DNA of 64,000 nucleotides from an uncultured Eubacteriales bacterium (GTDB lineage: Bacteria; Acidobacteriota; Aminicenantia; Aminicenantales; Saccharicenantaceae), in NCBI GenBank assembly GCA_964408215.1, contig CAYOYQ010000001.1, forward strand, positions 4,059-68,058. The letters are read 5' to 3'. Every line of letters starts with the position of its first letter. Position 1 is the stretch's first letter. The notes beneath the pieces are model-generated. The model saw nothing but the letters and a program-made list of their open reading frames with translations. It did no database searches and was not told the origin of the DNA. Positions 5,559 to 64,000 of this stretch are shown one piece after another. The translations under genes and the position numbers were made by a program.

Positions 5559-6662
5559 ATGACCGGCCGCATGACAGATCTGATCGGGAAGCCGGCGTCG
5601 CTCATCCCGACGCCGGCGCTGGTCGTCGAGATCGAAGCCCTGGAGCGCAATCTGCGCTTGATGTCCGGCTTCTTCGCCGGCCGCCACGCGAAGTTGCGCC
5701 CGCACTTCAAATCGCACAAGTGCGTCACGATCGCCCGGCGTCAGCTCGAGGCCGGCAACGCCGTGGGCATCACCTGCGCCAAGCTTTCAGAAGCGGAGGT
5801 CCTGGCCGCGGGGGGGATCCGGGACATCCTTATCGCCAACGAGATCGTGGGACCGGGCAAGCCCGAGCGGGTCGCCGAGCTGGCCCGGGCCTGCCGTCTC
5901 ACCGTCGCCGTGGACGACGAGTCCCAGGTGCGTCAGCTCTCCGCCGCGCTGGCCGGGACGCGCGCCGCCGTCGGCGTCCTGGTCGAGGTGGACATCGGAT
6001 TGCACCGTTGCGGCGTCCCGCCCGGCGAGCGGGCGCTCGAGATCGCCCGGGCCGCGGCGGCCGTCCCCAACGTCGATTTCCGCGGCCTCCAGGCCTACGA
6101 GGGCCACTGCACGACCGTCCTCGACCCCGAGGACAGGCGACGGCAGGTCCTCGTCTCGATGCGGAAGGCCGTGGCGACAAGGCGGCTCATCGAAGCGTCC
6201 GGCCTGCCGGTCCGGGTCCTCAGCGGCGGCGGGACGGGAACGTATGATATGACCGGCCTCATGGACGGCGTCGACGAGGTCCAGGCCGGTTCCTACGCCT
6301 TGATGGACCATTACTACGCGAAACGACGGCCCGAATTCGCCGTCGCCCTCAGCGTGATCACGACCGTCATCTCGAGCAACGGCTCGGACCACGCCGTCCT
6401 GGACGTCGGCGTGAAGGGGGTCGGGACGGATCTCGGCCCTCCCGTCCTGGCGGACGGCCCTGATGACGAGATCTCCCGCTTCGAGTCGGAGGAGCACGCG
6501 TCCGTCAAGGTCGGCGGCCGGCCGCTAAAGGTAGGGGACAGGGTCAGACTGTTCCCCTCGCACGGCTGCACGACCTGCAACCTGCACAGGCGCATCTTCG
6601 CCCTTCGGGACGGCCTCGTCAAGGACGTTTGGCCGATCGAAGGCAGCGGCTGCCTCGAATAG
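5559..6662 (+). CDS. DSD1 / D-threonine aldolase-like PLP enzyme (alanine-racemase-N fold)
   Basis: 367 aa. TPALVVEIEALERN...HFKSHKC (putative PLP lysine context), GIT...AKLSEAE, and a C-terminal SHGCTTCNLH typical of metal-activated D-Ser/D-Thr enzymes. Confidence 0.8.
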   Translation: MTGRMTDLIGKPASLIPTPALVVEIEALERNLRLMSGFFAGRHAKLRPHFKSHKCVTIARRQLEAGNAVGITCAKLSEAEVLAAGGIRDILIANEIVGPGKPERVAELARACRLTVAVDDESQVRQLSAALAGTRAAVGVLVEVDIGLHRCGVPPGERALEIARAAAAVPNVDFRGLQAYEGHCTTVLDPEDRRRQVLVSMRKAVATRRLIEASGLPVRVLSGGGTGTYDMTGLMDGVDEVQAGSYALMDHYYAKRRPEFAVALSVITTVISSNGSDHAVLDVGVKGVGTDLGPPVLADGPDDEISRFESEEHASVKVGGRPLKVGDRVRLFPSHGCTTCNLHRRIFALRDGLVKDVWPIEGSGCLE

Positions 6663-6739
6663 CGCGTCGACGCTCGAAGGACGATCAAAGGACGGCCGGC
6701 CTTCCAGAAGGGTCTTATTGCCGCTGAACTGGCCCAAAT

Positions 6740-9448
6740 TCAGGCCCTGCCGGAAGCGGATCGGCCGGACCCGAACAACAGCCCCGCGCCGGCGATCGGG
6801 AGGCAGACCAGCACGGCCGGGGCCGGCCCCGACCCTGCCGCGGCGCCCTTTTCCAGGTTCGCCCGCAGGGCGGGCACCGCCTCGCGGCGGACGAGGACCA
6901 TGAGACACCCGCCGAGGCCCGCTCCTGCGAGCTGCGCCCCGGCGACGCCGTCAGTCGCGATCGCGATGTCCACCATCCGGTCGATCGCGGGGAGACTGCA
7001 GGCGTAGCGCCCGGGCTGCCAGGCCAGCTGGGCCCGCTCGATCCTGGCCGGGTCTTGGCTTTCCAGGTCCTCGACAAGCCGCAGAAGATACGCGTCCGAG
7101 GCCGGAGCCCGGAAGGGCTCGGCTTCACCGTTCGCGTTCCGGACGGTCACGCGGTCGCCGTCATGGGACGCCTTCATCATCCGCCCGATCTCGCCGATCC
7201 GGCCCGCGCGCAGGAGGCCCGCGTAGAGCCGGGCCCGCTCGCATTCGGCCAGGCCGAAGAGGACGACACCGCGGATGGGATAAAGGCCGTCGCCGGGCTC
7301 CGCGTGGCTCGCCCAGAACGGCCTGAGGTCCTCCCCGGGGAGCAGCGCCTCGAGCCCGGCCCGCGTCGACTCCTCGGGCAGGCGGAGCAGGATGCGGTAG
7401 ATCGAGCTGAGCGGCAGGCCGAGGGTGCGGACATTGACGTCGCGCAGGTGTCGGAGGGCCGGGGCGAGGATCGGATGGAATTTCCGGATGAGCCGGAGTC
7501 CCAGCCGGTAGCAGGCGATCCGGTGGTTGAACTGGTCCCTGGCGCCGCCGCTCTTGCGGGCCCGCAGGCCGGAATCGACGACGGCCATCACGTACCCGTC
7601 GGGGAAGGGCACGGCGACCTCGACCGTGAAATCGAAGAAGCCGACCTTGATGACTGTCCCCCGGCGCCCCAGCCGGATCGCGGCGTGGTCGGCGCTCCCG
7701 CCGCGCGTGCCGGCGAACCACTCGCCCTCGCCGCAGAGATCGACGAACTGGGCCGGGAACGTCTCGAGGCCGTTCGCGGCGATCGTCGCCTCGGCCGCGC
7801 CCACCACCAGGCTCGACGAGGAGCTCAGGCCCGCGGCCGGCGGGATATCGCCCGAGACGGCGATGTCCAGCCCCCGTAGCCTGCGATGGGGGAACTTCTT
7901 CTGGAGACGGAGGACGGCCGCCTTGACGTATTGCGACCAGTCGCCGCCCGCCTCGCGGACCATCTCCCGGACCTTGTCGCTTTCGATGAGCGAGAGCCAG
8001 TCGTCCCAGGGCAGGCCGGCGACCAATTCCGAGATCGAGAACTCGCGGTCGGGATAGCGGCCGCGGTCGACGTTGAAGAGCCGGACGCGATCGTCCTGCC
8101 GCGGACAGATGGCGAGGAGCGTCTCGAAGCCGATGGTCATCAGGTTGCAGTTTCCGCCCTGGTGGTCGATGTGCCGGCCCATGACGTTGAGCCGGCCGGG
8201 GGAGCGGACGAGGAGCACCCGGCTCGAAGGATCGATGACCGTCGCCGCCTTGGCCAGGAGCGTCCGGAAGGCCTCCCGCCGCTCCTCGATCACAGCGGGG
8301 TCCTGGCCGTAGATCGTCCGGAGCTCGGCTTCGAGCGGGGAGGCCGCGACGGCGGCCCCGCCGAAAAGGGCGATCCAGTCGCGGAGCGGCCGGAAGGAAT
8401 CGCCCTCCGGGAGGCCCGGCGCCTCGCCGCCCTTGCGCCGCTCCAGGAGGATGGACTCGACGGCCAGGAGCTCGGCCGGGTTGTTGTAGCCGAGGATCGC
8501 GTCCGGCCGCTCGACCCGAAGGGCCCCGACCTTGAACCGCGCCCCGGAAAGCGCCTCGACGATCGCGGAGAGATACTCCTCTTTCTGGGCGTTGTCGCGG
8601 TCGAGGCGATCCAAGGCGAAGCGCAGGGTCGAGGCCTTGGCCACATAGATCGAGTTGTTCAGCCAGCGGCTGCGGCGGACCTCGTCGGGGCTGAGCTCGA
8701 TCCCGGCGCCGTCCGGCGTCCGGAACCGGAAGCTCTCCCGTCCCTCAGGGATGAGCGGAAGGAGCGCCTCCACCGGCCGGTTCTCGTTGACCGCCGTCCA
8801 GAGCTCGCCGAACGCGGCGGCGAGCTTCGCCTCCGGGGCCGGCGTCTGCGGAGCGGAGAACTCCCTTTCGATGATGTCCTTGGCCGCGATCGCGGTCAGG
8901 GTCCCCTGCGCCGACCGTGCCCTCAGGTTCCGGAAGATCTGGCGTTGGCGGATGTCGGCGTCCTCGACGACGGCCAGGGTCTCGCCCCGAGTCGATTCGA
9001 TGAGGCGGCCGCGGTCCGAACCGGGCGGCCCTGGCGAAACGGCCAGCGCCAGGTCGAGCTCCTGGTCCGAGAACAACATGAAGAGCCGCTCGAGGACCTC
9101 GGGATCGACGATCCGGTCGCCGGCCGCGAGCAGCAGCGAGGCCCCGGGCGCGATCCCCTCGAGCGCCCGGAGCCCGGCCCGGGCCGCGTCGGCCGTGCCC
9201 AGGGCCTCGGCCTGGGTGGCAAAAACGGCGTCCGGGAAAGCCTGCCGGACCGTTCCGATGACTTGATCCGCCATCGTCCCGACGACGACGATGTGCCGGG
9301 TGATGCCCGACTTGGTGTAGATGGCCAGGGCGCGGTTGATGGCCGGGACCCCGTCGACCGGGAAGCAGACCTTGTGGCAGGTCGCCGAGAGCATGCGCGA
9401 GCCCTTGCCCGCCGCAAGGATGACGCTGAACCGGGGCGCGGGGATCAT
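6740..9448 (-). CDS. Bifunctional nucleotidyltransferase / GHMP sugar-1-kinase fusion (FKP-like architecture)
   Basis: I chose the start at the ATG at 9448 (MIPAPRFSVILAAGKGSRM = NTP-transferase G-x-G-x-R loop). It overlaps the upstream stop as ATGA. The C-terminal half has a galactokinase-type signature GRLNVMGRHIDHQGG and the GHMP motif PPAAGLSSSSSLVVGA. The 117 codons further upstream in the ORF track are Arg/Gly-rich shadow. Confidence 0.8.
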   Translation of the reverse strand: MIPAPRFSVILAAGKGSRMLSATCHKVCFPVDGVPAINRALAIYTKSGITRHIVVVGTMADQVIGTVRQAFPDAVFATQAEALGTADAARAGLRALEGIAPGASLLLAAGDRIVDPEVLERLFMLFSDQELDLALAVSPGPPGSDRGRLIESTRGETLAVVEDADIRQRQIFRNLRARSAQGTLTAIAAKDIIEREFSAPQTPAPEAKLAAAFGELWTAVNENRPVEALLPLIPEGRESFRFRTPDGAGIELSPDEVRRSRWLNNSIYVAKASTLRFALDRLDRDNAQKEEYLSAIVEALSGARFKVGALRVERPDAILGYNNPAELLAVESILLERRKGGEAPGLPEGDSFRPLRDWIALFGGAAVAASPLEAELRTIYGQDPAVIEERREAFRTLLAKAATVIDPSSRVLLVRSPGRLNVMGRHIDHQGGNCNLMTIGFETLLAICPRQDDRVRLFNVDRGRYPDREFSISELVAGLPWDDWLSLIESDKVREMVREAGGDWSQYVKAAVLRLQKKFPHRRLRGLDIAVSGDIPPAAGLSSSSSLVVGAAEATIAANGLETFPAQFVDLCGEGEWFAGTRGGSADHAAIRLGRRGTVIKVGFFDFTVEVAVPFPDGYVMAVVDSGLRARKSGGARDQFNHRIACYRLGLRLIRKFHPILAPALRHLRDVNVRTLGLPLSSIYRILLRLPEESTRAGLEALLPGEDLRPFWASHAEPGDGLYPIRGVVLFGLAECERARLYAGLLRAGRIGEIGRMMKASHDGDRVTVRNANGEAEPFRAPASDAYLLRLVEDLESQDPARIERAQLAWQPGRYACSLPAIDRMVDIAIATDGVAGAQLAGAGLGGCLMVLVRREAVPALRANLEKGAAAGSGPAPAVLVCLPIAGAGLLFGSGRSASGRA

Positions 9449-39393: not shown

Positions 39394-42300
39394 TCAATAG
39401 CCCGAGAACCACTTGTAAAGGAGCTTGTAATCGTCCTTGCCCAAGTGGAACAAGAAGAACTTGCGCGTGGTGGGGCAAACGGTGGGACCCCTGTCCGATT
39501 TCGTATTGCCCTTGATCTCTTGTTCGTCCAACCAGACGATATCGACGCTGCTGAGGCGCTGCTTCTTCTGCCCGTACTGGCCGGAGCCGCCTCCTCCGCC
39601 TCCTCCCGAAGTCGAAGCAACGCTGCCCATCTCGCCGAACCGATAATGGATGCTGGAGTTCGAGCGCCGGTAGACGATGATGATCTGCTCGCCGGCGACG
39701 CCGACGGCCGGGCCGTCGGTCGACGAGGAGCCATCGACCTTGGTCTCCTCGGTCTCCTCAGGCCCCCATTTCCCCGAGGGGTCGAGGTAGCGGTAATAGA
39801 TGTCGCTGTTGCCGGATCCGCGATGGAAGACGTAGAGGCGGTCGCCGAACGCGCACGCCGCCGGGCTCGCCAGAGCCTTGACGTTCCCCGGGATGAGCTT
39901 CGTTTCCGTGAGGACGATGTCGGTCGTCTTGTCGACGCTCAGGATACCCGGCCTGAACCTCAAATAATTAATGCCCTTGCCCCCGGATTGGACGAAAAAG
40001 AGATATAGCTCACCTTTATAGACGGCGGCGGCAGGGCGGTAGTAGGAGGCTCCCGGGAGCTGCTGGCCGATGGGGTTTTCCGGCCACCATTTCCCGGAGG
40101 AGTCCATGTAGTGATAGTAGATGGCCCAGTCCGGCTGCTTGCGGTTCCCCATCCCGGCCGGCCAGCCGGCGTGAAAGAGATAGATCCGATCCCGGAAGAC
40201 GACGGCCACGGGCGCGCTGCAGGTCACGATGGGGTACGGCTTGAGAGTCGTATCGACGTTCCCGCCGAGCCTCTGCTTGATAGTCCCGTATTGGCTGCGG
40301 CCGCCTCCGCCGGGCTGGGCCGCGGCCCCGGTCGTCCCGGGCTCCTCCGTCTCGACGCTGGTCAGCACGGCCGGATCGAGACTCGCATATTGGATCGTCC
40401 ACCCGTCCAGCCAGAAAGCGTGGAGCTGGCCGTTGAACTCGGCGACCGACGGCGCGAAGACGCCTTTAGACGTATCGTTCAGCGGGAGAAGACAACTCGT
40501 CCCGTAGGGGTCCCAGGTCACGCCGCCGGAGCCCGAGGGCTTGAAGGTCCCGCCCGAGGGGCCGCCGAGCGCTCCGCCAGTGAAGATGTCCCAACTGCCG
40601 GTGACGGGGTCGAACAGGTCGCCCGTGGCCTTCCACCCCTCCCAGCTGATAATGTCCCAGTCCCAGCATTTCTTGTGCCACGGCGGGATATCGAAGGCCG
40701 GGACATAGACGCAGACATAGACACCCAAGCTGCCGCTAAGGGCCTGGAATTCATCGTAGAGGCGCAGGCTATAGGCGATCTTCAGGGAGCTCTCGCCGGC
40801 CTCGAGCTCGCCGATCAAACCCACGCTCCCTTCGAGCACGAGCGAGTTGTTGATCAGGGTCAAGGTGACCTTGACCCCGGCCTCCACGATCAGAAGGCTG
40901 ATGCCGGCGCTGGCGTAGACGTCCGCCCGGACGTAGGGGCCGAACCTGGCGCTGGCGCCGAGAGGGCTGAGATAGATCCCGCCTTCGATCCCGGCCGCGG
41001 CGCGGACGCCGGCCCTTAGGGTGATGACGAACGGACCGATGGGGATCGGCGTCGTATAGGACAGATCGAGGGACTTCTCCCACCGTTCCGTGGCCTCCCA
41101 GTGAGGCAGATCGACGAGCTTCGTCGTGCTCGAATAGGTTTTAGTGGGACAGTTGATGAGATCCCGGGTGGCCATACCGGCGATGTAGAGCGTGACCTTG
41201 GCGCCCATCTCTCCGCCCGGCGAGGGCGCCGTGGCGTTGCCGTCGACCCGGATGAGGGCGAACTTGTTGTCGAAAACATAGCCGCCGGCCTCGGCGTGCG
41301 CTTTGAGCTGGATGTTCCCTCCGGCCTGCACGGCATTGGTGCCCGGAATGGCATAAACGCCGGGCTTCTTGCCCGAGAGCTCGGCGGACCCCTCGAGATA
41401 GATGGCGAAGAGGTCCCTATCGCCGAGGGTCGGCAGGTCCGTTGAATATTCGTATTTGAAGTCGTTCCCCGTTTGGTCCGGCGCTGGCGGAGGAGGAACA
41501 TAGCCGCTCGGTGAAAGAGGGGGCGGCTCCTCGGACCTGTCCTTGATCAGCCGCTGCAGCCGGGCCCGGTCCGCGCTCTGCTGCTTCAGGTATTGCTGCT
41601 GAAATTCGGCGGCTCCCAAGGGCTTGGCGATGGACAAGCGGCGGTGGCGGCCGATGAAATCCTGGCCGGCCTTGCGGACCTGGGCGGCTTGGGCGGCGGA
41701 GAACCGGGTCTCCTGGAGCTTGGCCCCGGGGCTCGGGTCCCGGCGGACGTCGAGGGTGTAGCCGAGGGCGTTGAACTGGCTCTCAAGGATATTGAGGTCG
41801 TTGTAGTAGTCGGCAGCCCGCATGGTCTTCCCGTTCGGAAAAGGAGGCAGCACCGCGTCGGGAGCGATGGCGTTTCCGTTCCGGGGGTCCACGACCGCGA
41901 ACGGCTGATAGGCCAAGGGCTGTCTTCGGTTGACCAGGATCCGGGCCGTCTTGAATTGGGCGTTCCTGACGGGCAGGAGGCTGTCCACCGGCTCCCCGAC
42001 ATAGGGGAGGTGGCCTTTTTCCGCCGCCGAACGCTGGAGCTGTGACTGGAGGCTCCAAACGACCGGTCCGGTGTGCAATTGACCGACCGCTTGCGCTTGG
42101 GCTTCGCCCGCGACAGGCGGAGGGGCGGATGCCTTCGAGGGTTGAGCCTTGGTCGTCGCCGTCCTGGCTGCGGTCGCGGTGGCCTGCCGGGCCTGTGGAG
42201 TGCCCGCCGCCACATCGGACGGCGCGGGAAGCCGGATCGTCACCTGGACCTGGGCTGAGCCGGTCCCGAAATTGACGACGCTGAGCCGCCAGGCGCTCCC

Positions 42301-42690
42301 TTTCGCGAGAAGGGCCGCATTGATGTCAAAGGCCAGGACGAGCGGGCTTGTCCCGTCCCGGCGGGCGTAGGCCTGGGCTTGACCGGGACCATTGAGGATC
42401 AGGGCCAGCTTCGGAGCCGAGCCGGTCCATTCGGCTCGGGCCTCCAACTTGCCGGCCGCCGGAACCTGGACGTCGATGTCCGTGCGCCCGTTGGCCTGGA
42501 GCGCGAACGAACGGGAGGCCGTGCCGGCCGGCGGCGGCGCTGCGGACTGGGCTTTCTTGGCGCTGACTTGGCCACCGGCGGCGCCGGGCCCGTAGGCCCC
42601 CGAGATGGCGAGGGCGATGCCGAGGGCCAACAAGGCCAGGTAGCGCCCCAAGGACTTGGCCATGGATTCCCGCTCCGTTTTGGTTTCCAT
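39394..42690 (-). CDS. Giant secreted hypothetical protein: beta-sandwich head, strand-rich core, six-repeat propeller-like tail
   Basis: About 1098 aa from METKTERES (AAGGAGA RBS); ATG at 42705 or 42663 are alternatives. Signal peptide LALLALGIALAISGAYG. Domain details are in the findings. Confidence 0.7.
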   Translation of the reverse strand: METKTERESMAKSLGRYLALLALGIALAISGAYGPGAAGGQVSAKKAQSAAPPPAGTASRSFALQANGRTDIDVQVPAAGKLEARAEWTGSAPKLALILNGPGQAQAYARRDGTSPLVLAFDINAALLAKGSAWRLSVVNFGTGSAQVQVTIRLPAPSDVAAGTPQARQATATAARTATTKAQPSKASAPPPVAGEAQAQAVGQLHTGPVVWSLQSQLQRSAAEKGHLPYVGEPVDSLLPVRNAQFKTARILVNRRQPLAYQPFAVVDPRNGNAIAPDAVLPPFPNGKTMRAADYYNDLNILESQFNALGYTLDVRRDPSPGAKLQETRFSAAQAAQVRKAGQDFIGRHRRLSIAKPLGAAEFQQQYLKQQSADRARLQRLIKDRSEEPPPLSPSGYVPPPPAPDQTGNDFKYEYSTDLPTLGDRDLFAIYLEGSAELSGKKPGVYAIPGTNAVQAGGNIQLKAHAEAGGYVFDNKFALIRVDGNATAPSPGGEMGAKVTLYIAGMATRDLINCPTKTYSSTTKLVDLPHWEATERWEKSLDLSYTTPIPIGPFVITLRAGVRAAAGIEGGIYLSPLGASARFGPYVRADVYASAGISLLIVEAGVKVTLTLINNSLVLEGSVGLIGELEAGESSLKIAYSLRLYDEFQALSGSLGVYVCVYVPAFDIPPWHKKCWDWDIISWEGWKATGDLFDPVTGSWDIFTGGALGGPSGGTFKPSGSGGVTWDPYGTSCLLPLNDTSKGVFAPSVAEFNGQLHAFWLDGWTIQYASLDPAVLTSVETEEPGTTGAAAQPGGGGRSQYGTIKQRLGGNVDTTLKPYPIVTCSAPVAVVFRDRIYLFHAGWPAGMGNRKQPDWAIYYHYMDSSGKWWPENPIGQQLPGASYYRPAAAVYKGELYLFFVQSGGKGINYLRFRPGILSVDKTTDIVLTETKLIPGNVKALASPAACAFGDRLYVFHRGSGNSDIYYRYLDPSGKWGPEETEETKVDGSSSTDGPAVGVAGEQIIIVYRRSNSSIHYRFGEMGSVASTSGGGGGGGSGQYGQKKQRLSSVDIVWLDEQEIKGNTKSDRGPTVCPTTRKFFLFHLGKDDYKLLYKWFSGY

Positions 42691-59336: not shown

Positions 59337-60263
59337 CTACTTGATGTTCTTCAGGATGCTCGTCTGGGTCTCTGTGACTTCCTTGCGGACTTCCCCCATA
59401 ACGCCGAACAGTTCACCTGCCCGTTCTTTGCCCCGGGTCATTTCCCGGCAGATTTCGGCGTAATAGCCGCACCGCTTGAGGCATTCAGACCGGGCCCTTT
59501 CTTGGGCCGCTCGGGCGGGCGAGCCTTCGGGGGCGGTCACCGGGTTCTTCTTGGCGCAGCAGTCCTGGCACTGGGCGAGGTCGCATGATGTACAAAGGCC
59601 GGAGTTATCGGGCCGGAGCGCCTCCAGACGCGAGTTGTATTCGGCCTGACGGGCTTTGAGAAGGCCGCTGAGGTCCCGAAGCGCGTCCGCTTCGCGTCGG
59701 AGCTCCTGAGCGGCCTTGGACAGGCACTGCTTGTCCCGGTCGGGGACCGCCGAACCGGGAGAGATCCTGCCGAAGGACCCCTTGATGGCCACGAGGTCAC
59801 GGCGGATCGCCTTGATCTCATTGACGATCGCGCTCATCTGCCGCCCGGCCTCTCCTTCGATCCTCCGCATCTCCCGAACTCCCGCGATGGTCTCGAGCGA
59901 CGTCCCGCCCGACCGCGGCCCGGCGATCTGGCCGGCCGCGGTCTGAGACGATCCCGCCGCCGGGGCCGGCTTCACGGGGCCCGGCGTCGCGACGGTTTCT
60001 GCGATCTCCTTCTCCGCCTTCGAAGAGGCCTCGATCATCCTCCGTCCGGATTCCACGAAATCCTGGGCTATGCGGTTGACGCCTTGAAGCCTGGACGCGG
60101 CCTTTGTCAGCTCCTGGCAAAGACCGCTCAAGTTCTCCTGAGCCCCCTGAACAGTGGCCCGTTCCTGCTGGACCGTTTGAGGCGGCCCGGACGACGCTTC
60201 CGGGCCCCAGGCCTGAAGCGTGGCGAAGGCCAGAACGGCCGCGGCCGCGGCGACGCTTTTCAT
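59337..60263 (-). CDS. Hypothetical secreted coiled-coil protein with a Cys-rich C-terminal segment
   Basis: 308 aa with a signal peptide. The ATG overlaps the upstream TGA (ATGA), with a GGGAGGGA RBS. C-terminal LCTSCDLAQCQDCC...ECLKRCGYYAEIC. Confidence 0.55.
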   Translation of the reverse strand: MKSVAAAAAVLAFATLQAWGPEASSGPPQTVQQERATVQGAQENLSGLCQELTKAASRLQGVNRIAQDFVESGRRMIEASSKAEKEIAETVATPGPVKPAPAAGSSQTAAGQIAGPRSGGTSLETIAGVREMRRIEGEAGRQMSAIVNEIKAIRRDLVAIKGSFGRISPGSAVPDRDKQCLSKAAQELRREADALRDLSGLLKARQAEYNSRLEALRPDNSGLCTSCDLAQCQDCCAKKNPVTAPEGSPARAAQERARSECLKRCGYYAEICREMTRGKERAGELFGVMGEVRKEVTETQTSILKNIK

Positions 60264-61135
60264 TTCGATGTCCCTCCCTGCTTGACCAGCTCGACGCGGC
60301 GGTTCTTGGCCCGGCCTTCCTCGGCGTCGTTGGTCGTGACCGGGGCCAGGGGGCCCACACCGAAGGGCTTGAGGCGGTCCGGGGCGACGCCGTGCTTCGA
60401 CACCAGCTCCTTGACCACGGCTTCCGCTCGCTGCTGCGAGAGCTTCATGTTGTGGTCCAGGGCGCCCGTTGTGTCGGTGTGGCCGACGACGTAGAGCTTG
60501 AGAGCGGCGTCCTGGCCGAGGAGCTTGGCGATCTCCGTCAGGGCCGTTTCCGATTCGGGCTTGACGTCGGCCTTGTCGACGTCGAAGTAGATGCCGTAGA
60601 GGACGGCCTTGCCGGTCGCGCCGATGTCGGCGGCCATGGTCTTGGCGTCGGCCTCGACCTCCTGCCGCATCCGCTCCTTCTCGATGACGGTGAGCGTGTA
60701 GCCCTTGCCGTTCTGATTGATATAGATGCGGACGAAGATCTCGAGACCTTCCTTGGCGTAGCGGGCGTGCAGCTCCCCGCCGCCGATCTGGGTCCAGGAG
60801 TAGGTCTTGCCCCCGACCTTCTGGATGGCCGTTTCATAGTTGCGGATGATCTGCAGGGCAGTGGGCGAGCTCTCCCGGAACTCGTCCTTGACCTGGTAGC
60901 TGAGCCAGAACTTCTTCCCTTCGGCTGTGACCTTCGTCTTCCCCTGGGTCGCGGGGTCGTAGAACTCCTGGGCGTCGAAATCCCATTTCTTGCATTCGAC
61001 GAGAGCGTACTGCGGCATCCGCGTCAGGAACGGATGGTCCTGGCAGCCGGCCGCGTCCTTCTGGGCCCGGACGGGGGCCGCCGCGAGGGTCAGGGTCAAA
61101 ACAAGACCGGTCATGACGATGCGTGCTCTGGACAT
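60260..61135 (-). CDS. OmpA-family peptidoglycan-binding protein with an N-terminal DUF4892-like domain
   Basis: ATG at 61135, 9 nt after AAGGAGG. Signal peptide. The C-terminus has YFDVDKADVKPES...VVGHTDTTG...NMKLSQQRAEAV...NRRVELV (OmpA_C). Confidence 0.85.
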   Translation of the reverse strand: MSRARIVMTGLVLTLTLAAAPVRAQKDAAGCQDHPFLTRMPQYALVECKKWDFDAQEFYDPATQGKTKVTAEGKKFWLSYQVKDEFRESSPTALQIIRNYETAIQKVGGKTYSWTQIGGGELHARYAKEGLEIFVRIYINQNGKGYTLTVIEKERMRQEVEADAKTMAADIGATGKAVLYGIYFDVDKADVKPESETALTEIAKLLGQDAALKLYVVGHTDTTGALDHNMKLSQQRAEAVVKELVSKHGVAPDRLKPFGVGPLAPVTTNDAEEGRAKNRRVELVKQGGTSK

Positions 61136-61172
61136 GTTCGCCAACCTCCTTTGATCTCGAGCGCCGTCGCGC

Positions 61173-62666
61173 TCATTTCCGTTCCGGAAGCTCCAGATTC
61201 CAGCTGAAGCTCGTCCCGGGATCGTTTCCCTGGTTGCTGCGATGGCCGGGCCAGCCGGCGCGCTCTCCGGCGGGAGCGGCGTAGGAGCCCCGGATGCCCC
61301 CGCCGCCGGCCGTTCCCCCCAGGAGATCGGGAAGGGTCTCGACGGCGATGGCCCAGGCGCCGCCTTCCCGCTTCTCCGGGCCGCGTAAGCCGATCTCGAG
61401 TTGATAGCCGCCCGACTTGCGGTCGACGACGAGCCTGACGGACACGCTGTCCTCGGGCCCGAAGGCGCCGCTGTCTTCGACCTTTTCGCAGAGGGCGTCG
61501 GCCTTCCGGCCGTTGATGAACGCGTCGTTGCTGTAGCTGTAGGAGTAAGTCGCCGCGGCCGACTCGGACCTATAGTAATCCTTGTCCTTGTAGCTGTTCG
61601 TGTACTTGAGCGAGACCCGGACGGTGGCCTCTTCCGTCAAGCTCCCCTTGTAGGCTACGGACCCCGCCCGGTTGGACACTGTGTCGTCCCAGGAAATCGT
61701 CCGGCGATAGACGATGGTCCCGGGGGCGGCGCCGCAGTGGACCGTGAGCCGGACTTCCCCGATCTTGCGCCCGGCGGCGGTCCGGGAGAGAGGCTGGCGG
61801 TCCGGACGTACGATGTCGCAGGAGCCGTAGACGGCGACGATGTCCTCGACGCCGGCCGTTTCCCGGCTGGGCGCCCGGTAGCGAAGCTCGACCAGCCCGT
61901 CGCCGACGAGGAAGGCGCGGGCCTTCGGCCGGCCTTCGACGGCCTCTCCCCCGAGGATCTCGCCCTTCTCCGCTTCGACCACGATCCGGTTGAAGGGCTT
62001 CGGCTCCCGGGAGCGCTCGTCCCGGAAGGCCGCCAGAATGAGGTCGGTCGTCTCGCCGCAGGCCAGGTCCTTCTTCGCCGGGTGGACATCGCAGGCGACG
62101 GGACGGCGCTCGAAGTCGCGGAGCAGCGCCTCCATCGGTCCGGCCGCTCTCAGCACGGCGTCCTCGTTCTTGAACATCCGGTTCGTGCAGGAGGTGTAGG
62201 AGTTGACCGGGCTCGTCACCGACCAGGCCGCGACGGGCTCGCGGGCCTCGCCGTCGTAGAACAGGCCGATCGTCAGCCGGCTCATCACGGTCCCGCCGTC
62301 CCCGTCTTTCGTGTTCAGGTTCTCTTCGTACCTCCCGGTGAAGACATATTCGGGCGGCCTGGCCCCGGAGCCGAATCCGGCGATGTCCCGTCCCCACTCC
62401 GACGCGTCTGAGCGGACGAGATGGAAGCAGGGCGAGGTCAGGAGCTCGGCCAGCCGGGACGAAAGCGATTCCCGGAGCGCGACGCCGGTCGCCCCGGCGT
62501 CGGCGTCGCCGACATAAGCCTGACGTGCGCAGCCCTCACAGCCGGGCCGAGCGGCCTGGCGGGCGCCCCCGGAGCGGACGCCGGAAAGAAGCAGTCCCGA
62601 AACGCAGGCCAAACCCGCGGCCCAGCGGGCGGGGGAAGGCCATCGGGCCCCAAGTCGCGTCGGCAT
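61173..62666 (-). CDS. Hypothetical exported protein
   Basis: The ORF is open to 62690 (TTG). ATG at 62666 is preferred (GGAGGAAGGG directly upstream; MPTRLGARW...GLACVSGLLLSG). No family recognised. Confidence 0.55.
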   Translation of the reverse strand: MPTRLGARWPSPARWAAGLACVSGLLLSGVRSGGARQAARPGCEGCARQAYVGDADAGATGVALRESLSSRLAELLTSPCFHLVRSDASEWGRDIAGFGSGARPPEYVFTGRYEENLNTKDGDGGTVMSRLTIGLFYDGEAREPVAAWSVTSPVNSYTSCTNRMFKNEDAVLRAAGPMEALLRDFERRPVACDVHPAKKDLACGETTDLILAAFRDERSREPKPFNRIVVEAEKGEILGGEAVEGRPKARAFLVGDGLVELRYRAPSRETAGVEDIVAVYGSCDIVRPDRQPLSRTAAGRKIGEVRLTVHCGAAPGTIVYRRTISWDDTVSNRAGSVAYKGSLTEEATVRVSLKYTNSYKDKDYYRSESAAATYSYSYSNDAFINGRKADALCEKVEDSGAFGPEDSVSVRLVVDRKSGGYQLEIGLRGPEKREGGAWAIAVETLPDLLGGTAGGGGIRGSYAAPAGERAGWPGHRSNQGNDPGTSFSWNLELPERK

Positions 62667-62686
62667 CCCTTCCTCCATATTCTTTG

Positions 62687-64000
62687 TCAAAAGAACGTCG
62701 GCGTGGAGTTCAGCCCGATCCGGAAGCCCGCGGAAGCGCCGCCGAGGTCGGTCGTCAGGGCCTCCCCGAGCTTCATGCCCACAGAGGCTTTGGCCTCGAG
62801 CCCGATATCCGTCATCGATTCCCCGTCAAAGCTGAGGACGAGCCCGGCCCTGGCGGACGTTCCGGCCGAGACCAGCTTTCCGGCCTCGAGGCCGGCCTCA
62901 GCGCCGATGAAGAGCGTTCCTGTCTTCTCGACGAAGTTCCATTCGAGCTCCACGGCGGCGATGCCGATATCGCCGCCGACGGTCACAGTGGTGCAGTCGA
63001 TGTGGAAAGAGACGACGGCGAGATCGAGCCCGAGTCCCGGGAAGGTGCACGGCACCTTGAAGTCCTCGAGGCGCAGCTCGCCCTCGATCGACTGGGCGGG
63101 CGGCGGCGTCTTCAGGCAGCTCTCATGAGGGGCCAGCGCGGAGAACATGAAGAGCATCTGGTCGACGATCTGCGAGTAGTTCGCCAGGACGGCTCCTCTG
63201 GCACTGATCCTGGTCCGGGCCGCTTCCTCCTGGTCGGCGATGAAGCTGGCCCAGTGATTCACGGTCCGATGATAGGCCAGGGCCGCGGCCTCCCAGGCCG
63301 GAGCGAACTGGGCGTAGGCTTCGGAGACGGCGAGAGCTTCGCCGTCGAAGGTCTGGGCGTGCCGGGCGCAGGCGCGGCGCTTGACCTCCTCGAGGCAGAG
63401 GCCGCGGAGCTTCGGCTCGAGCGTCCGGCACCTTTCTTCCTCGGCCAGCCCGGCCTTTTCGAGCTCGCCGCGTTTCCTCACAGCCTCCATCCAGCGGGCA
63501 TGGATGTCGCCGACGAAACGTTCCCGCGATTTGCTGAGACGCTCGAGCCAGAGCTCGGCGCCGCGCAGCCCTCGCTTCGCCTTGTCGGGTGTCAGCCGGA
63601 GGACCCGCGCGCCGGATGCCGGGGCCGCGGCTGTCGCGGCCCCCCCGGAGGGCCGCGCTTGCGGGCCGATCGGCAGGAGCCGCCGGAGCTCCTCGTTCAA
63701 AGTCATGGCCCAAGCGGCTTTCATTTTGCCTTCCGTCTCCAGCGCCCGTCGGGCCGCGATGCACTCGGCGCTGTTGCCCGCCTGGACCATCGGCAGGCGG
63801 ACCGAGGCCTCCTTCCCGGCCTCGGCGGCCAGGAAAGGGACCGGCGGCTGCGCCCCGGGAGCCTCGGCTTTGGCCGAGCCGCTCCGGCGCAGGGCGCGGT
63901 CCACGTCTTTGAGGGCTTCGGCCGCGGCCGCCGTATAGGAGCTGTCGAGAGAGGCGTCGAGGTGTCGTCGGGCCGCCGCGAGATCGTTCCTCCGGCGGGC
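62687..64000 (-). CDS. Hypothetical protein, helical N-part and Gly/Ala-rich strand-like C-part ending in FF; the 5' end is undefined and may lie beyond the window
   Basis: The frame has no stop from 62690 to 64000 (checked codon by codon for 63905-64000). Internal candidate starts are GTG at 63904 and the ATGs of MVQAGN and MKAAWA. The protein ends ...GFRIGLNSTPTFF. Confidence 0.5.
   Translation of the reverse strand, partial: ARRRNDLAAARRHLDASLDSSYTAAAAEALKDVDRALRRSGSAKAEAPGAQPPVPFLAAEAGKEASVRLPMVQAGNSAECIAARRALETEGKMKAAWAMTLNEELRRLLPIGPQARPSGGAATAAAPASGARVLRLTPDKAKRGLRGAELWLERLSKSRERFVGDIHARWMEAVRKRGELEKAGLAEEERCRTLEPKLRGLCLEEVKRRACARHAQTFDGEALAVSEAYAQFAPAWEAAALAYHRTVNHWASFIADQEEAARTRISARGAVLANYSQIVDQMLFMFSALAPHESCLKTPPPAQSIEGELRLEDFKVPCTFPGLGLDLAVVSFHIDCTTVTVGGDIGIAAVELEWNFVEKTGTLFIGAEAGLEAGKLVSAGTSARAGLVLSFDGESMTDIGLEAKASVGMKLGEALTTDLGGASAGFRIGLNSTPTFF

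What the first reader, a model, noticed from the sequence alone, without database searches (positions are those of the whole stretch)
59337..64000. OmpA-linked four-gene operon of unassigned exported proteins, the first ending in an outer-membrane-type C-terminus
The four minus-strand genes, in transcription order, are:
- (1) A protein of at least 437 aa, still open at the window edge. It has a helical, Arg/Glu/Ala-rich N-part. Its C-terminal ~130 aa are Gly/Ala-rich with strand-like alternation (…GLGLDLAVVSFHIDCTTVTVGGDIGIAAVELEWNF…GLEAKASVGMKLGEALTTDLGGASAGFRIGLNSTPTFF) and end in Phe-Phe, like the beta-signal of outer-membrane barrels.
- (2) A ~497-aa exported protein with no recognisable motif. 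Its preferred start is 21 nt after gene 1's stop, and the alternative TTG overlaps that stop.
- (3) A DUF4892-like/OmpA_C peptidoglycan anchor.
- (4) A coiled-coil protein with a Cys-rich end (CTSCDLAQCQDCC…CLKRCGYYAEIC), joined to gene 3 by an ATGA overlap.

This looks like a trans-envelope assembly: a barrel-like element, a peptidoglycan anchor and periplasmic coiled-coil or Cys-knot partners. It belongs to no family I can name.
Basis: inference. Interest (0 to 1): 0.6.

Follow-up and report, generated by a model that had tools for sequence, protein, structure and literature searches.

The report
Patchy exported envelope operon, OmpA-anchored
Four real, co-transcribed genes for exported proteins most likely build an optional complex under the outer membrane, tied to the cell wall; its core pair, a TPR protein with a new C-terminal domain plus an OmpA-type anchor, recurs in several phyla and is undescribed, but the claimed outer-membrane barrel signal is not conserved.

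Summary
The four minus-strand genes exist as described and are under purifying selection (dN/dS 0.23-0.45).

- **Gene 1** is 623 aa: N-terminal hydrophobic segment, TPR repeats, a three-helix bundle, a Pro-rich linker and a ~120-aa amphipathic beta domain with invariant cysteines. Its Phe-Phe end is not conserved, so the beta-signal reading fails; a membrane-inserting sheet or barrel is not excluded.
- **Gene 2** is not motif-less. Its N-domain has the fold of PelC (shared with CsgG, LptE and PqiC), followed by an Ig-like sandwich and a long-hairpin beta domain. It has no lipobox.
- **Gene 3** is an OmpA_C peptidoglycan binder. The DUF4892 label is not supported.
- **Gene 4** is a near-orphan with ten invariant cysteines.

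Genes 1-2-3 stay together only in one narrow clade, often beside IS elements, and are decayed in two close relatives. Gene 4 is rarer still. A profile search shows that gene 1 belongs to an unannotated family of 76 clusters in Acidobacteriota, Methylomirabilota and Bacteroidota. In 5 of 6 distant loci this family sits beside a same-strand OmpA_C gene.

Best reading: an accessory, peptidoglycan-tethered periplasmic or outer-membrane-proximal complex, resembling PelB/PelC or TolB/Pal/CpoB in layout but a member of neither.

The parts
62687..64000 (-). Gene 1. The window holds residues 187-623 plus the stop. The full gene is 623 aa and reaches window coordinate 64558, outside the window. It is an exported protein with TPR repeats, a helical bundle and a beta domain.
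   Evidence: ORF. TPR repeats by Pfam. AF2 model m92de512b1a2b. Only 8 close homologues in 5.8e9 proteins. 76 remote representative clusters.
63134..63589 (-). Gene 1 three-helix bundle (full-length residues ~324-475) with three invariant Cys (C377, C388, C397).
   Evidence: AF2 helices 138-192, 196-251 and 257-289 of the window part, pLDDT about 90. Invariant Cys.
62690..63049 (-). Gene 1 C-terminal amphipathic beta domain (residues 504-623). It follows a Pro-rich linker and has invariant C504 and C522. It ends in TPTFF.
   Evidence: Eight predicted strands, pLDDT 70-79. Dyad hydrophobicity pattern. C504 and C522 invariant in 69 family members. C-terminal residues not conserved.
61173..62666 (-). 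Gene 2, a 497-aa exported three-domain protein. The mature N-terminus carries a conserved CxxC (GCxGCxRRA). There is no canonical lipobox.
   Evidence: ORF and Shine-Dalgarno sequence. 13 homologues. Alignment. AF2 model with pLDDT 78.5 and pTM 0.71.
62109..62525 (-). Gene 2 N-terminal alpha/beta domain (residues 48-186) with a PelC-like fold.
   Evidence: Foldseek against PelC (5t11, 5t10): probability 1.00, 118-122 columns, 21-23% identity, TM-score by target 0.42-0.45. FlgT and the LPHT ring are weaker hits. No sequence-level hit in PDB.
61191..62096 (-). Gene 2 Ig-like beta sandwich (residues 191-310) and long-hairpin beta domain (residues 313-492).
   Evidence: AF2 secondary structure. 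Ig-like Foldseek hits to invasins InvD and InvE, BbgIII and complement C3.
60260..61144 (-). Gene 3, an exported protein with an unannotated N-domain (residues 29-165) and an OmpA_C peptidoglycan-binding domain (residues 186-282, window 60299-60589). The likely start is the ATG at 61135.
   Evidence: Pfam OmpA, E 5.7e-20. NCBIfam hits confined to the OmpA_C part. Start codon. N-domain present in 35 of 61 relatives. DUF4892 not matched.
59337..60263 (-). Gene 4, a 308-aa exported helical protein with ten invariant Cys. The Cys-rich block covers residues 224-272 (window 59448-59594).
   Evidence: ORF and ATGA overlap. Only two homologue clusters. Cys invariant. dN/dS 0.45.

Best explanation
The operon encodes an accessory, horizontally mobile envelope module. 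It is a complex in the periplasm, close to the outer membrane (OM), that is tethered to peptidoglycan.

Inferred roles
- Gene 1 is the scaffold. After export, its TPR repeats and a disulfide-stapled three-helix 'stalk' reach through the periplasm. A flexible Pro-rich linker carries a disulfide-stapled amphipathic beta domain. That domain buries its hydrophobic face in or against the OM, or by self-association.
- Gene 2 adds a PelC-fold domain. This is the fold that known OM-associated proteins (PelC, PqiC, CsgG, LptE, FlgT) use to form rings or plugs under OM proteins. Gene 2 extends it with an Ig-like and a beta-rich domain.
- Gene 3 binds peptidoglycan through OmpA_C and fixes the assembly to the wall.
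- Gene 4 is a lineage-specific, disulfide-rich helical accessory.

Shown
- The gene models, their export signals, the domain folds at the stated confidence, purifying selection, the synteny pattern, and the cross-phylum pairing of the gene 1 family with OmpA_C genes.

Inferred
- Physical complex formation, OM association of gene 1's beta domain, and ring formation by gene 2.

The cargo or physiological role is unknown. The patchy, IS-flanked and decaying distribution points to a niche-specific surface or envelope function rather than a housekeeping one.
For: - Tight operon: 20-nt and 28-nt gaps, an ATGA overlap, Shine-Dalgarno sequences before each start, one promoter-like site upstream, and flanking genes that are divergent and convergent.
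- All four genes are under purifying selection.
- Gene 1 architecture. Six Cys invariant within the close family and two across 69 remote members fit an oxidising compartment.
- Gene 2 N-domain matches PelC at probability 1.00.
- Literature: proteins with the PelC, PqiC, CsgG or LptE core (and FlgT) are OM-associated ring or plug modules (PMC13631591). The PelC ring docks on the TPR and stalk helix of PelB, which is built as N-terminal anchor, TPR, then C-terminal beta domain (PMC12141448).
- Gene 3 has an OmpA_C domain.
- Genes 1-2-3 are syntenic in G032, L020, L021/L022, L028 and L031/L032.
- The gene 1 family has 76 representative clusters, and at least 38 of 69 keep the TPR repeats.
- In 5 of 6 distant loci (Bryobacterales, Methylomirabilota, two Bacteroidota, one metagenome contig) an OmpA_C gene lies within about 5 kb on the same strand. 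In two of them it shares gene 3's own N-domain at 37-42% identity. With about 6 OmpA_C genes in 3.1 Mb, the chance expectation is about 2% per locus.
- Accessory nature: only 2 of 60 relatives have gene 1. IS elements flank the cluster in L020, L021 and L026. The cluster is decayed in L024 and G020.
Against: - There is no experimental or expression evidence.
- The gene 1 model rests on 10 sequences, its beta part has only pLDDT 70-79, and I could not inspect coordinates to see whether the sheet closes.
- Gene 2 lacks the lipobox that anchors PelC, PqiC, CsgG and LptE to the OM.
- The PelC similarity is at fold level only, with TM-score 0.42-0.45 and rmsd about 6 A.
- Gene 2 is not tied to gene 1: in L025 it follows two other large proteins.
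- Gene 1 stands alone in its 31-39% relatives.
- Gene 3's N-domain family is common in relatives that lack gene 1, so the anchor could be generic.
Confidence: 0.45

Rival explanations
1. Gene 1's C-terminus is a true BAM-assembled outer-membrane beta-barrel with a C-terminal beta-signal, and the four proteins form a machine that spans the envelope.
For: - Eight long amphipathic strands are predicted.
- The best weak Foldseek hits for that part are 8-stranded OM barrels: NspA at probability 0.47, designed TMB2.3 and OmpG.
- The close relatives end in an aromatic residue.
- Gly content is 16%.
Against: - The terminal aromatic residue is not conserved in the family, and tails of 2-20 residues follow the last strand.
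- The domain has no Tyr and only one Trp in 120 residues, while two Cys are invariant.
- None of 69 members hits an OMP Pfam family.
- All structural hits have E > 0.2 and TM-score at most 0.35.
- The first four strands are only 5-8 residues long.
- The operon holds no inner-membrane or energy component.
Confidence: 0.12
2. The module is a miniature PelB/PelC-like export gate. Gene 1 (anchor, TPR, stalk, beta domain) oligomerises into an OM pore, and gene 2 forms a PelC-like ring beneath it. The pair would export a polymer or a protein, perhaps the co-varying 1028-aa protein.
For: - The layouts are parallel. PelB is built as N-terminal hydrophobic segment, TPR, stalk helix and barrel, with a PelC ring docked on the TPR and stalk (PMC12141448).
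- Gene 2's N-domain matches PelC.
- Gene 1, gene 2 and the 1028-aa protein share neighbourhoods.
Against: - No glycosyltransferase, synthase or other Pel, Bcs or Pga gene lies in the operon or its flanks.
- The beta domain is about 120 aa, against a 16-stranded barrel in PelB.
- Gene 2 has no lipid anchor and carries two extra domains.
- Gene 1 occurs widely without gene 2.
Confidence: 0.12
3. The module is a Tol-Pal-like tether between the OM and peptidoglycan that supports envelope integrity. Gene 2 would play TolB (alpha/beta N-domain plus a beta-rich body), gene 3 would play Pal, and gene 1 would play CpoB/YbgF (TPR plus coiled coil).
For: - The domain inventory parallels TolB-Pal-CpoB. 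This rests on my own knowledge of the Tol-Pal operon.
- The gene 2 to gene 3 adjacency is the tightest in the cluster.
- NCBIfam Pal models hit gene 3's OmpA_C part below their cut-offs.
Against: - TolB itself is not among the top 50 Foldseek hits.
- Gene 2 has no beta-propeller.
- Gene 3 is not a lipoprotein, because its Cys is not conserved.
- No TolQRA-like genes are adjacent.
- The cluster is dispensable: it is absent from 58 of 60 relatives.
Confidence: 0.1
4. The locus is polymorphic and carries surface or effector 'cargo'. A left marker (the 145-aa exported protein) and a right anchor (gene 3) flank interchangeable large exported proteins: gene 1, the 827-aa and 1028-aa proteins, and gene 2 with its paralogue. 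These would be surface structures, adhesins or membrane-active effectors used in competition or defence.
For: - The arrangements are mosaic: L018 has p145, gene 1, p1028. L025 has p827, p1028, gene 2, gene 3. G029 has p145, a gap, p1028, gene 3. L031 has p146, gene 1, gene 2 paralogue, gene 2, gene 3, gene 4. The window's own genome is split between contig C1 and contig C97.
- IS elements, a toxin-antitoxin neighbour, deletions and a chimeric fusion occur at these loci.
- dN/dS is relatively high at 0.34-0.45 for genes 1, 2 and 4.
- The 1028-aa protein has 2-3 hydrophobic helices.
Against: - No toxin, immunity or secretion-system domain was detected in any member.
- The pairing of the gene 1 family with OmpA_C is ancient and spans phyla, which suggests a structural partnership rather than swappable cargo.
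Confidence: 0.15

Closest known systems
PelB-PelC outer-membrane export complex of the Pel polysaccharide system (Pseudomonas aeruginosa; PMC12141448)
   Same: One protein is built as N-terminal hydrophobic segment, TPR repeats, helical stalk and C-terminal beta domain (gene 1, compare PelB). It is encoded next to a protein with the PelC alpha/beta fold (gene 2 N-domain; Foldseek probability 1.00, 21-23% identity).
   Different: - Gene 1's beta domain is about 120 aa with 6-8 strands, not a 16-stranded porin.
- There is no sequence or Pfam relation to either Pel protein.
- Gene 2 is 497 aa with three domains and has no lipobox, whereas PelC is a single-domain lipoprotein.
- No pelA or pelD-G genes and no synthase are nearby.
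- An OmpA_C anchor and a Cys-rich helical protein are added.
The fold group of OM-associated alpha/beta proteins that includes PqiC, LptE, CsgG, PelC and FlgT (PMC13631591)
   Same: Gene 2's N-domain (residues 48-186) shares the common alpha/beta core. FlgT (3w1e) and the flagellar LPHT ring (8z5n) also appear among the hits.
   Different: - No lipid anchor.
- No CsgG-type transmembrane hairpins.
- No Pfam or NCBIfam hit to CsgG, LptE, PqiC or DUF799-type models.
- Oligomeric state is unknown.
TolB-Pal-CpoB (YbgF) part of the Tol-Pal system
   Same: The inventory is similar: an alpha/beta N-domain protein with a beta-rich body, an OmpA_C peptidoglycan binder, and a TPR plus coiled-coil periplasmic protein, all in one operon.
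   Different: - No beta-propeller and no TolQRA genes.
- Gene 3 is not a lipoprotein.
- Domain order in gene 1 is the reverse of CpoB.
- The cluster is accessory and patchy, not universal.
OmpA C-terminal domain peptidoglycan anchors (Pal, YiaD, YfiB, MotB; Pfam PF00691)
   Same: Gene 3 residues 186-282 match PF00691 over the full profile length (E 5.7e-20).
   Different: Every NCBIfam equivalog scores below its cut-off and matches only the OmpA_C part. The 137-aa N-domain is unannotated but common in this order, where 35 of 61 genomes have it.
TPR-porin exopolysaccharide exporters BcsC, PgaA and AlgK/AlgE
   Same: A periplasmic TPR scaffold lies N-terminal to a C-terminal beta domain.
   Different: No 16-18-stranded barrel, no matching Pfam family and no polysaccharide synthase context.

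Membership tests
BAM-dependent outer-membrane beta-barrel proteins | A conserved C-terminal beta-signal: the last strand ends at the C-terminus with an aromatic residue. | tested here: not met
   FF, RF, TW or VF occur only in the close relatives. P0009 ends in -SFLE and P0010 in -GWK. Most of the 69 remote members end in non-aromatic tails of variable length after a conserved G-[LV]-N-S-G motif.
BAM-dependent outer-membrane beta-barrel proteins | A closed transmembrane barrel of at least 8 strands with aromatic girdles. | tested here: inconclusive
   AF2 gives eight antiparallel amphipathic strands at pLDDT 70-79. Four of them are only 5-8 residues long. The domain has no Tyr and one Trp. Foldseek hits to NspA, TMB2.3 and OmpG have E > 0.5 and TM-score at most 0.35. 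Model coordinates could not be inspected.
BAM-dependent outer-membrane beta-barrel proteins | A match to a known OMP sequence family. | tested here: not met
   No OMP Pfam family was hit in P0001 or in any of the 69 family members. No NCBIfam hit.
PelC family (OM lipoprotein of Pel export) | The PelC alpha/beta fold. | tested here: met
   Foldseek probability 1.00 to 5t11 and 5t10, 118-122 aligned columns, 21-23% identity, TM-score by target 0.42-0.45. The model has pLDDT about 85-90 in that domain.
PelC family (OM lipoprotein of Pel export) | A lipoprotein signal peptide (lipobox Cys) that anchors the protein to the OM. | tested here: not met
   The conserved first Cys is preceded by PG, SG, QD, QE or NG and follows sites typical of signal peptidase I (AGA|QDC, INA|QEC). 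There is no [LVI][ASTVI][GAS]C at the end of the hydrophobic region (alignment).
PelC family (OM lipoprotein of Pel export) | Sequence-family membership and pel operon context (pelA-G). | tested here: not met
   No Pfam, NCBIfam or PDB sequence hit. No pel genes lie in the operon or its flanks.
PelC family (OM lipoprotein of Pel export) | Formation of a dodecameric ring. | not testable with these tools
PelB/BcsC/PgaA TPR-porins | N-terminal periplasmic TPR repeats. | tested here: met
   Pfam TPR_17, TPR_16, TPR_19, TPR_2 and related families over residues 80-215, E down to 4e-12.
PelB/BcsC/PgaA TPR-porins | A C-terminal 16-18-stranded barrel and a polysaccharide synthase neighbourhood. | tested here: not met
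   The beta domain has about 120 aa and at most 8 strands. There is no matching Pfam family and no synthase gene nearby.
OmpA_C peptidoglycan-binding domain proteins (PF00691) | A full-length match to the OmpA_C profile above the gathering score. | tested here: met
   71.9 bits against a cut-off of 27.2, profile positions 1-98 of 98.
   No hit at E<=1 in hmmscan. No hit at E<=10 in a six-frame search of the whole genome.
Tol-Pal system | A TolB beta-propeller, a Pal lipoprotein and adjacent tolQRA genes. | tested here: not met
   The gene 2 model has no propeller. TolB is not in the top 50 Foldseek hits. Gene 3's Cys is not conserved and not in a lipobox. No tolQRA genes lie in the flanks.

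The most novel reading that the evidence does not exclude
The gene 1 family would define an undescribed class of OM-inserting proteins. It has 76 clusters across Acidobacteriota, Methylomirabilota and Bacteroidota, no Pfam model and no structural relative. In this reading a small, disulfide-stapled amphipathic beta domain inserts into the OM, possibly as an oligomeric barrel. It sits on a periplasmic stalk of TPR repeats and a helical bundle, and works obligatorily with an OmpA-type wall anchor. In this lineage, with a non-lipidated PelC-fold protein, it would form a miniature PelBC-like gate that needs no BAM-type beta-signal.
Probability: 0.12. Interest if true: 0.75.

Novelty: new variant of a known kind. 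Interest (0 to 1): 0.4.

Why it matters
Envelope complexes made of a TPR scaffold, a PelC/CsgG/LptE-fold module and an OmpA-type wall anchor are how diderm bacteria move polymers and hold their outer membrane.

This analysis gives three things:
- An unannotated protein family, cheaply definable and spread over several phyla. Its architecture is signal peptide, TPR repeats, a Cys-marked helical bundle, a Pro-rich linker and a two-Cys beta domain.
- A statistically strong genomic partner for that family, an OmpA_C gene.
- A non-lipidated, three-domain variant of the PelC fold.

If the beta domain does insert into the outer membrane without a canonical beta-signal, it would bear on how such proteins are targeted.

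If not, this is one more 'dark' accessory periplasmic complex of uncultured Acidobacteria-like bacteria. That would be useful for annotation but not surprising.

Tried and rejected
Searches that found nothing useful
- Pfam and NCBIfam on all four proteins gave only TPR and OmpA_C hits.
- PDB sequence searches with the gene 2 profile, the gene 1 non-TPR part, gene 4 and the gene 3 N-domain gave nothing significant.
- Foldseek of the gene 1 model gave no hit below E 0.2.
- DUF4892 for gene 3 is rejected.
- Earlier scan notes hold nothing for gene 1 or gene 2 by sequence.

Proposed relationships that failed
- Gene 4 is not related to gene 1's Cys-bearing helices (hhalign probability 0.3%).
- The 377-aa Bacteroidales neighbour is not a gene 2 homologue, despite a similar-looking N-terminal motif (hhalign probability 0.2%).
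- The 1028-aa and 827-aa neighbours are not relatives of gene 2 or gene 1.
- The small exported proteins beside distant gene 1-family genes are not homologous to each other or to p145. The conserved core is therefore a pair, not a triad.
- P0010's neighbours (ankyrin/metallo-beta-lactamase, GH43) are unrelated to the cluster.

Technical limits
- The 69-sequence alignment was too diverse for the search for related loci. A tighter subgroup gave only 5 genome loci and 2 metagenome loci.
- Python had no access to some fetched loci at first.

Full report
**1. Observation**

The window is G000:C1:4059-68058 of a MAG of 3.13 Mb in 383 contigs, about 80% complete.

Reading on in the genome, gene 1 is 623 aa and starts at window coordinate 64558. 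A TTGACA-17-GATGAT promoter-like site lies about 30 nt upstream. Further upstream is a divergent PemK/MazF-type ORF. Downstream of gene 4 is a convergent MttB-family gene. The four genes are therefore a bounded unit.

The junctions are as described:
- Gene 1's stop is followed by 20 nt containing GGAGGA and then gene 2's ATG. An in-frame TTG overlaps the stop.
- A 28-nt spacer with a GC hairpin and AAGGAGG precedes gene 3.
- Genes 3 and 4 overlap by ATGA.
- Gene 3 probably starts at the ATG at 61135 (291 aa), which matches the lengths of its orthologues.

dN/dS against the orthologous cluster in L031 is 0.38, 0.34, 0.23 and 0.45 for genes 1 to 4. All four are real coding genes under constraint.

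**2. Gene 1**

- *Model.* AF2 on a 10-sequence alignment (pLDDT 72.5) gives a confident three-helix bundle (pLDDT about 90), a disordered Pro-rich linker, and eight antiparallel strands at pLDDT 70-79.
- *Strand pattern.* The strands have a strict dyad pattern, and it is conserved across homologues. One face is Leu, Ile, Val, Phe or Ala. The other is Glu, Lys, Arg, Asp, Ser, Thr or Gly.
- *Cysteines.* Six Cys are invariant in the close family.
- *Structural matches.* Foldseek finds nothing significant. The best hits for the beta part are small OM barrels (NspA, TMB2.3, OmpG), with E > 0.5 and TM-score at most 0.35.

The Phe-Phe end is not conserved. P0009 ends in -SFLE, P0010 in -GWK, P0008 in -TTW and P0005 in -SRF.

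An exhaustive profile search with the non-TPR part found 76 representative clusters at E <= 1e-3. Most are 620-770 aa, carry ordinary signal peptides, and match right to their C-terminal end.
- TPR repeats are present in at least 38 of 69 members, and no Pfam family covers the helical or beta part.
- C504 and C522 are invariant, and C481, G552 and D584 are nearly so.
- The tails after the last strand vary in length and are mostly non-aromatic.

The 'beta-signal' reading therefore fails. An amphipathic, possibly membrane-inserting sheet remains open.

**3. Gene 2**

Gene 2 has no Pfam, NCBIfam or PDB sequence hit. The AF2 model is decent (pLDDT 78.5, pTM 0.71) and has three domains.

The N-terminal alpha/beta domain matches PelC at probability 1.00, with 21-23% identity over about 120 columns. 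FlgT and the LPHT ring are further hits. The middle domain draws Ig-like hits.

According to PMC13631591, PelC-, PqiC-, CsgG- and LptE-like OM lipoproteins share this core, FlgT (3W1E) also appears among that paper's Foldseek hits, and the lipoproteins act as rings or plugs at the OM. According to PMC12141448, twelve PelC subunits dock on the TPR and stalk of PelB.

Gene 2 differs from these. It has no lipobox. Its mature N-terminus is a conserved GCxGCxRRA motif behind sites typical of signal peptidase I. It also carries two extra domains.

**4. Genes 3 and 4**

- *Gene 3.* Its C-terminal half is a full OmpA_C domain. All NCBIfam equivalogs score below cut-off and match only that half. The 137-aa N-domain matches neither DUF4892 nor any PDB sequence. 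It is nonetheless common: 35 of 61 related genomes encode proteins of about 290 aa with it.
- *Gene 4.* It has only two homologue clusters among 5.8 billion proteins, ten invariant Cys, and no significant similarity to anything known.

**5. Distribution and synteny**

Among 60 relatives, 36 of them in the same genus, only G032 (82% identity) and G017 (31-41%) have gene 1. The large protein database holds 8 gene 1 homologues and 13 gene 2 homologues.

| Locus | Arrangement |
|---|---|
| G032 | genes 1-2-3-4 |
| L031/L032 | divergent p146, gene 1, gene 2 paralogue, genes 2-3-4 |
| L020 | divergent p145, genes 1-2-3, then an IS630 transposase |
| L021/L028 | transposase, genes 1-2-3, then PNPOx |
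| L025 | 827-aa protein, 1027-aa protein, genes 2-3 |
| L018 | divergent p145, gene 1, 1028-aa protein |
| G029 | p145, gap, 1028-aa protein, gene 3 |
| L024 | gene 1 plus a gene 3 remnant, beside the same MttB gene as in the window |
| G020 | chimeric gene 1(1-44)::gene 2(198-497), gene 3, gene 4 remnant |
| L026/L027 | gene 2 paralogue alone, between IS fragments |
| P0009, P0010, G017, P0032 | gene 1 alone |

The window's own genome keeps the 1028-aa protein, p145 and another OmpA_C gene on contig C97.

The four-gene set is thus a clade-specific, mobile and decaying arrangement within a mosaic neighbourhood.

**6. The deeper signal**

Distant gene 1-family loci were retrieved from Methylomirabilota, Bacteroidales, Tangfeifania, Rikenellaceae, Bryobacterales and one metagenome contig. 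In five of these six, an OmpA_C gene lies within about 5 kb on the same strand.

In Bryobacterales the partner is 42% identical to gene 3 over nearly its full length, N-domain included. In Methylomirabilota the figure is 37%.

With about 6 OmpA_C genes in 3.1 Mb, the chance rate is about 2% per locus. The gene 1-family protein plus an OmpA-type anchor is therefore the ancient core, and genes 2 and 4 are lineage-specific additions.

An earlier first-reader note on another genome (e1-5224509) describes 'OmpA-domain protein, lipoprotein and TPR protein', and it shares sequence words with the Bacteroidales member. I treat this as a lead that agrees, not as evidence.

**7. Mechanism**

The most likely reading (confidence 0.45) is an accessory, peptidoglycan-tethered complex in the periplasm close to the OM.
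- Gene 1 is the scaffold, with its amphipathic beta domain at or in the OM.
- Gene 2 is a PelC-fold module beneath it.
- Gene 3 is the wall anchor.
- Gene 4 is a disulfide-rich accessory.

The rival readings are a true BAM-type barrel machine (0.12), a miniature PelBC-like export gate (0.12), a Tol-Pal-like tether (0.10), and a polymorphic surface or effector cargo locus (0.15).

No inner-membrane or energy component is present, so 'trans-envelope' is not shown.

**8. Comparison and novelty**

The module resembles PelB/PelC and TolB/Pal/CpoB in layout, but it fails the defining membership features of both: lipobox, barrel size, operon context and propeller.

It is best filed as a new variant of the known kind 'OM-proximal, wall-anchored periplasmic complexes'. 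It is built around an undescribed protein family.

Interest is moderate. The family definition, the OmpA pairing and the non-lipidated PelC-fold protein are new and testable. However, function is inferred, and similar 'dark' exported operons are common.

Noticed in passing
Own genome, contig C97:1219-5886 (outside the window): This is a second locus of the same neighbourhood network. It holds an OmpA_C protein of 335 aa (minus strand), the p145 homologue (C97:2261-2695, minus strand, 74% identical to the L018 copy) and, divergent from them, a 1024-aa exported protein with no Pfam hit and 2-3 hydrophobic helices at about residues 700-765. An IstB-like fragment follows.
   Followed up: partly
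window 42091-42540 (-): The N-terminal beta-sandwich-like domain (residues 63-220) of the 1028-aa protein family matches, at 43% identity, part of a 1111-aa ORF inside the window. Earlier notes treat that region as a strand-rich giant partnered with a vitellogenin-like lipoprotein.
   Followed up: no
L002:6753-7406 (+), which is window 64694-65347, just outside the window: A single 217-aa ORF has a PemK/MazF toxin domain at residues 113-214 (E 2.6e-23). Its N-terminal extension reads like an AbrB/MazE-type antitoxin (MKTKELKVARIGNSRGVRLP...). Antitoxin and toxin seem to lie in one frame with no stop between them.
   Followed up: partly
L045 (G020:C46), about 6250-8311: A deletion fuses gene 1 codons 1-44 to gene 2 codons 198-497, giving a chimeric ORF (this is P0019, 341 aa). 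Gene 3 is intact, and only residues 52-88 of gene 4 remain. This is a snapshot of the cluster decaying.
   Followed up: yes
L024:2441-2881: In an 85%-identical relative, gene 2 is deleted and gene 3 is reduced to a broken remnant (signal peptide plus an internal fragment). Gene 1 still sits beside the same MttB gene as in the window.
   Followed up: yes
L031:3868-5478, L021:2830-4416, L026:4936-6513: There is a gene 2 paralogue subfamily of 523-536 aa (P0020 to P0023). It shares the PelC-like and Ig-like domains but has a different C-terminal half. It occurs in tandem with gene 2, or alone between IS fragments.
   Followed up: partly
L048:4597-8450: Two gene 1-family genes lie in tandem behind an OmpA_C gene in a metagenome contig related to Rikenellaceae.
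   Followed up: no
window 61159-61174: A perfect 6-bp GC hairpin, GAGCGC-GACG-GCGCTC, sits in the spacer between genes 2 and 3, with no T-run on the coding strand. It could be an intercistronic processing or attenuation element.
   Followed up: no
L035:9884-11823 and L036:8556-10435: In Bacteroidota, the gene 1-family gene is followed by a conserved pair of unannotated exported proteins. One of them has LRR repeats and an 'IRQQMATIRQST' motif, which also occurs at the N-terminus of family member P0086.
   Followed up: no
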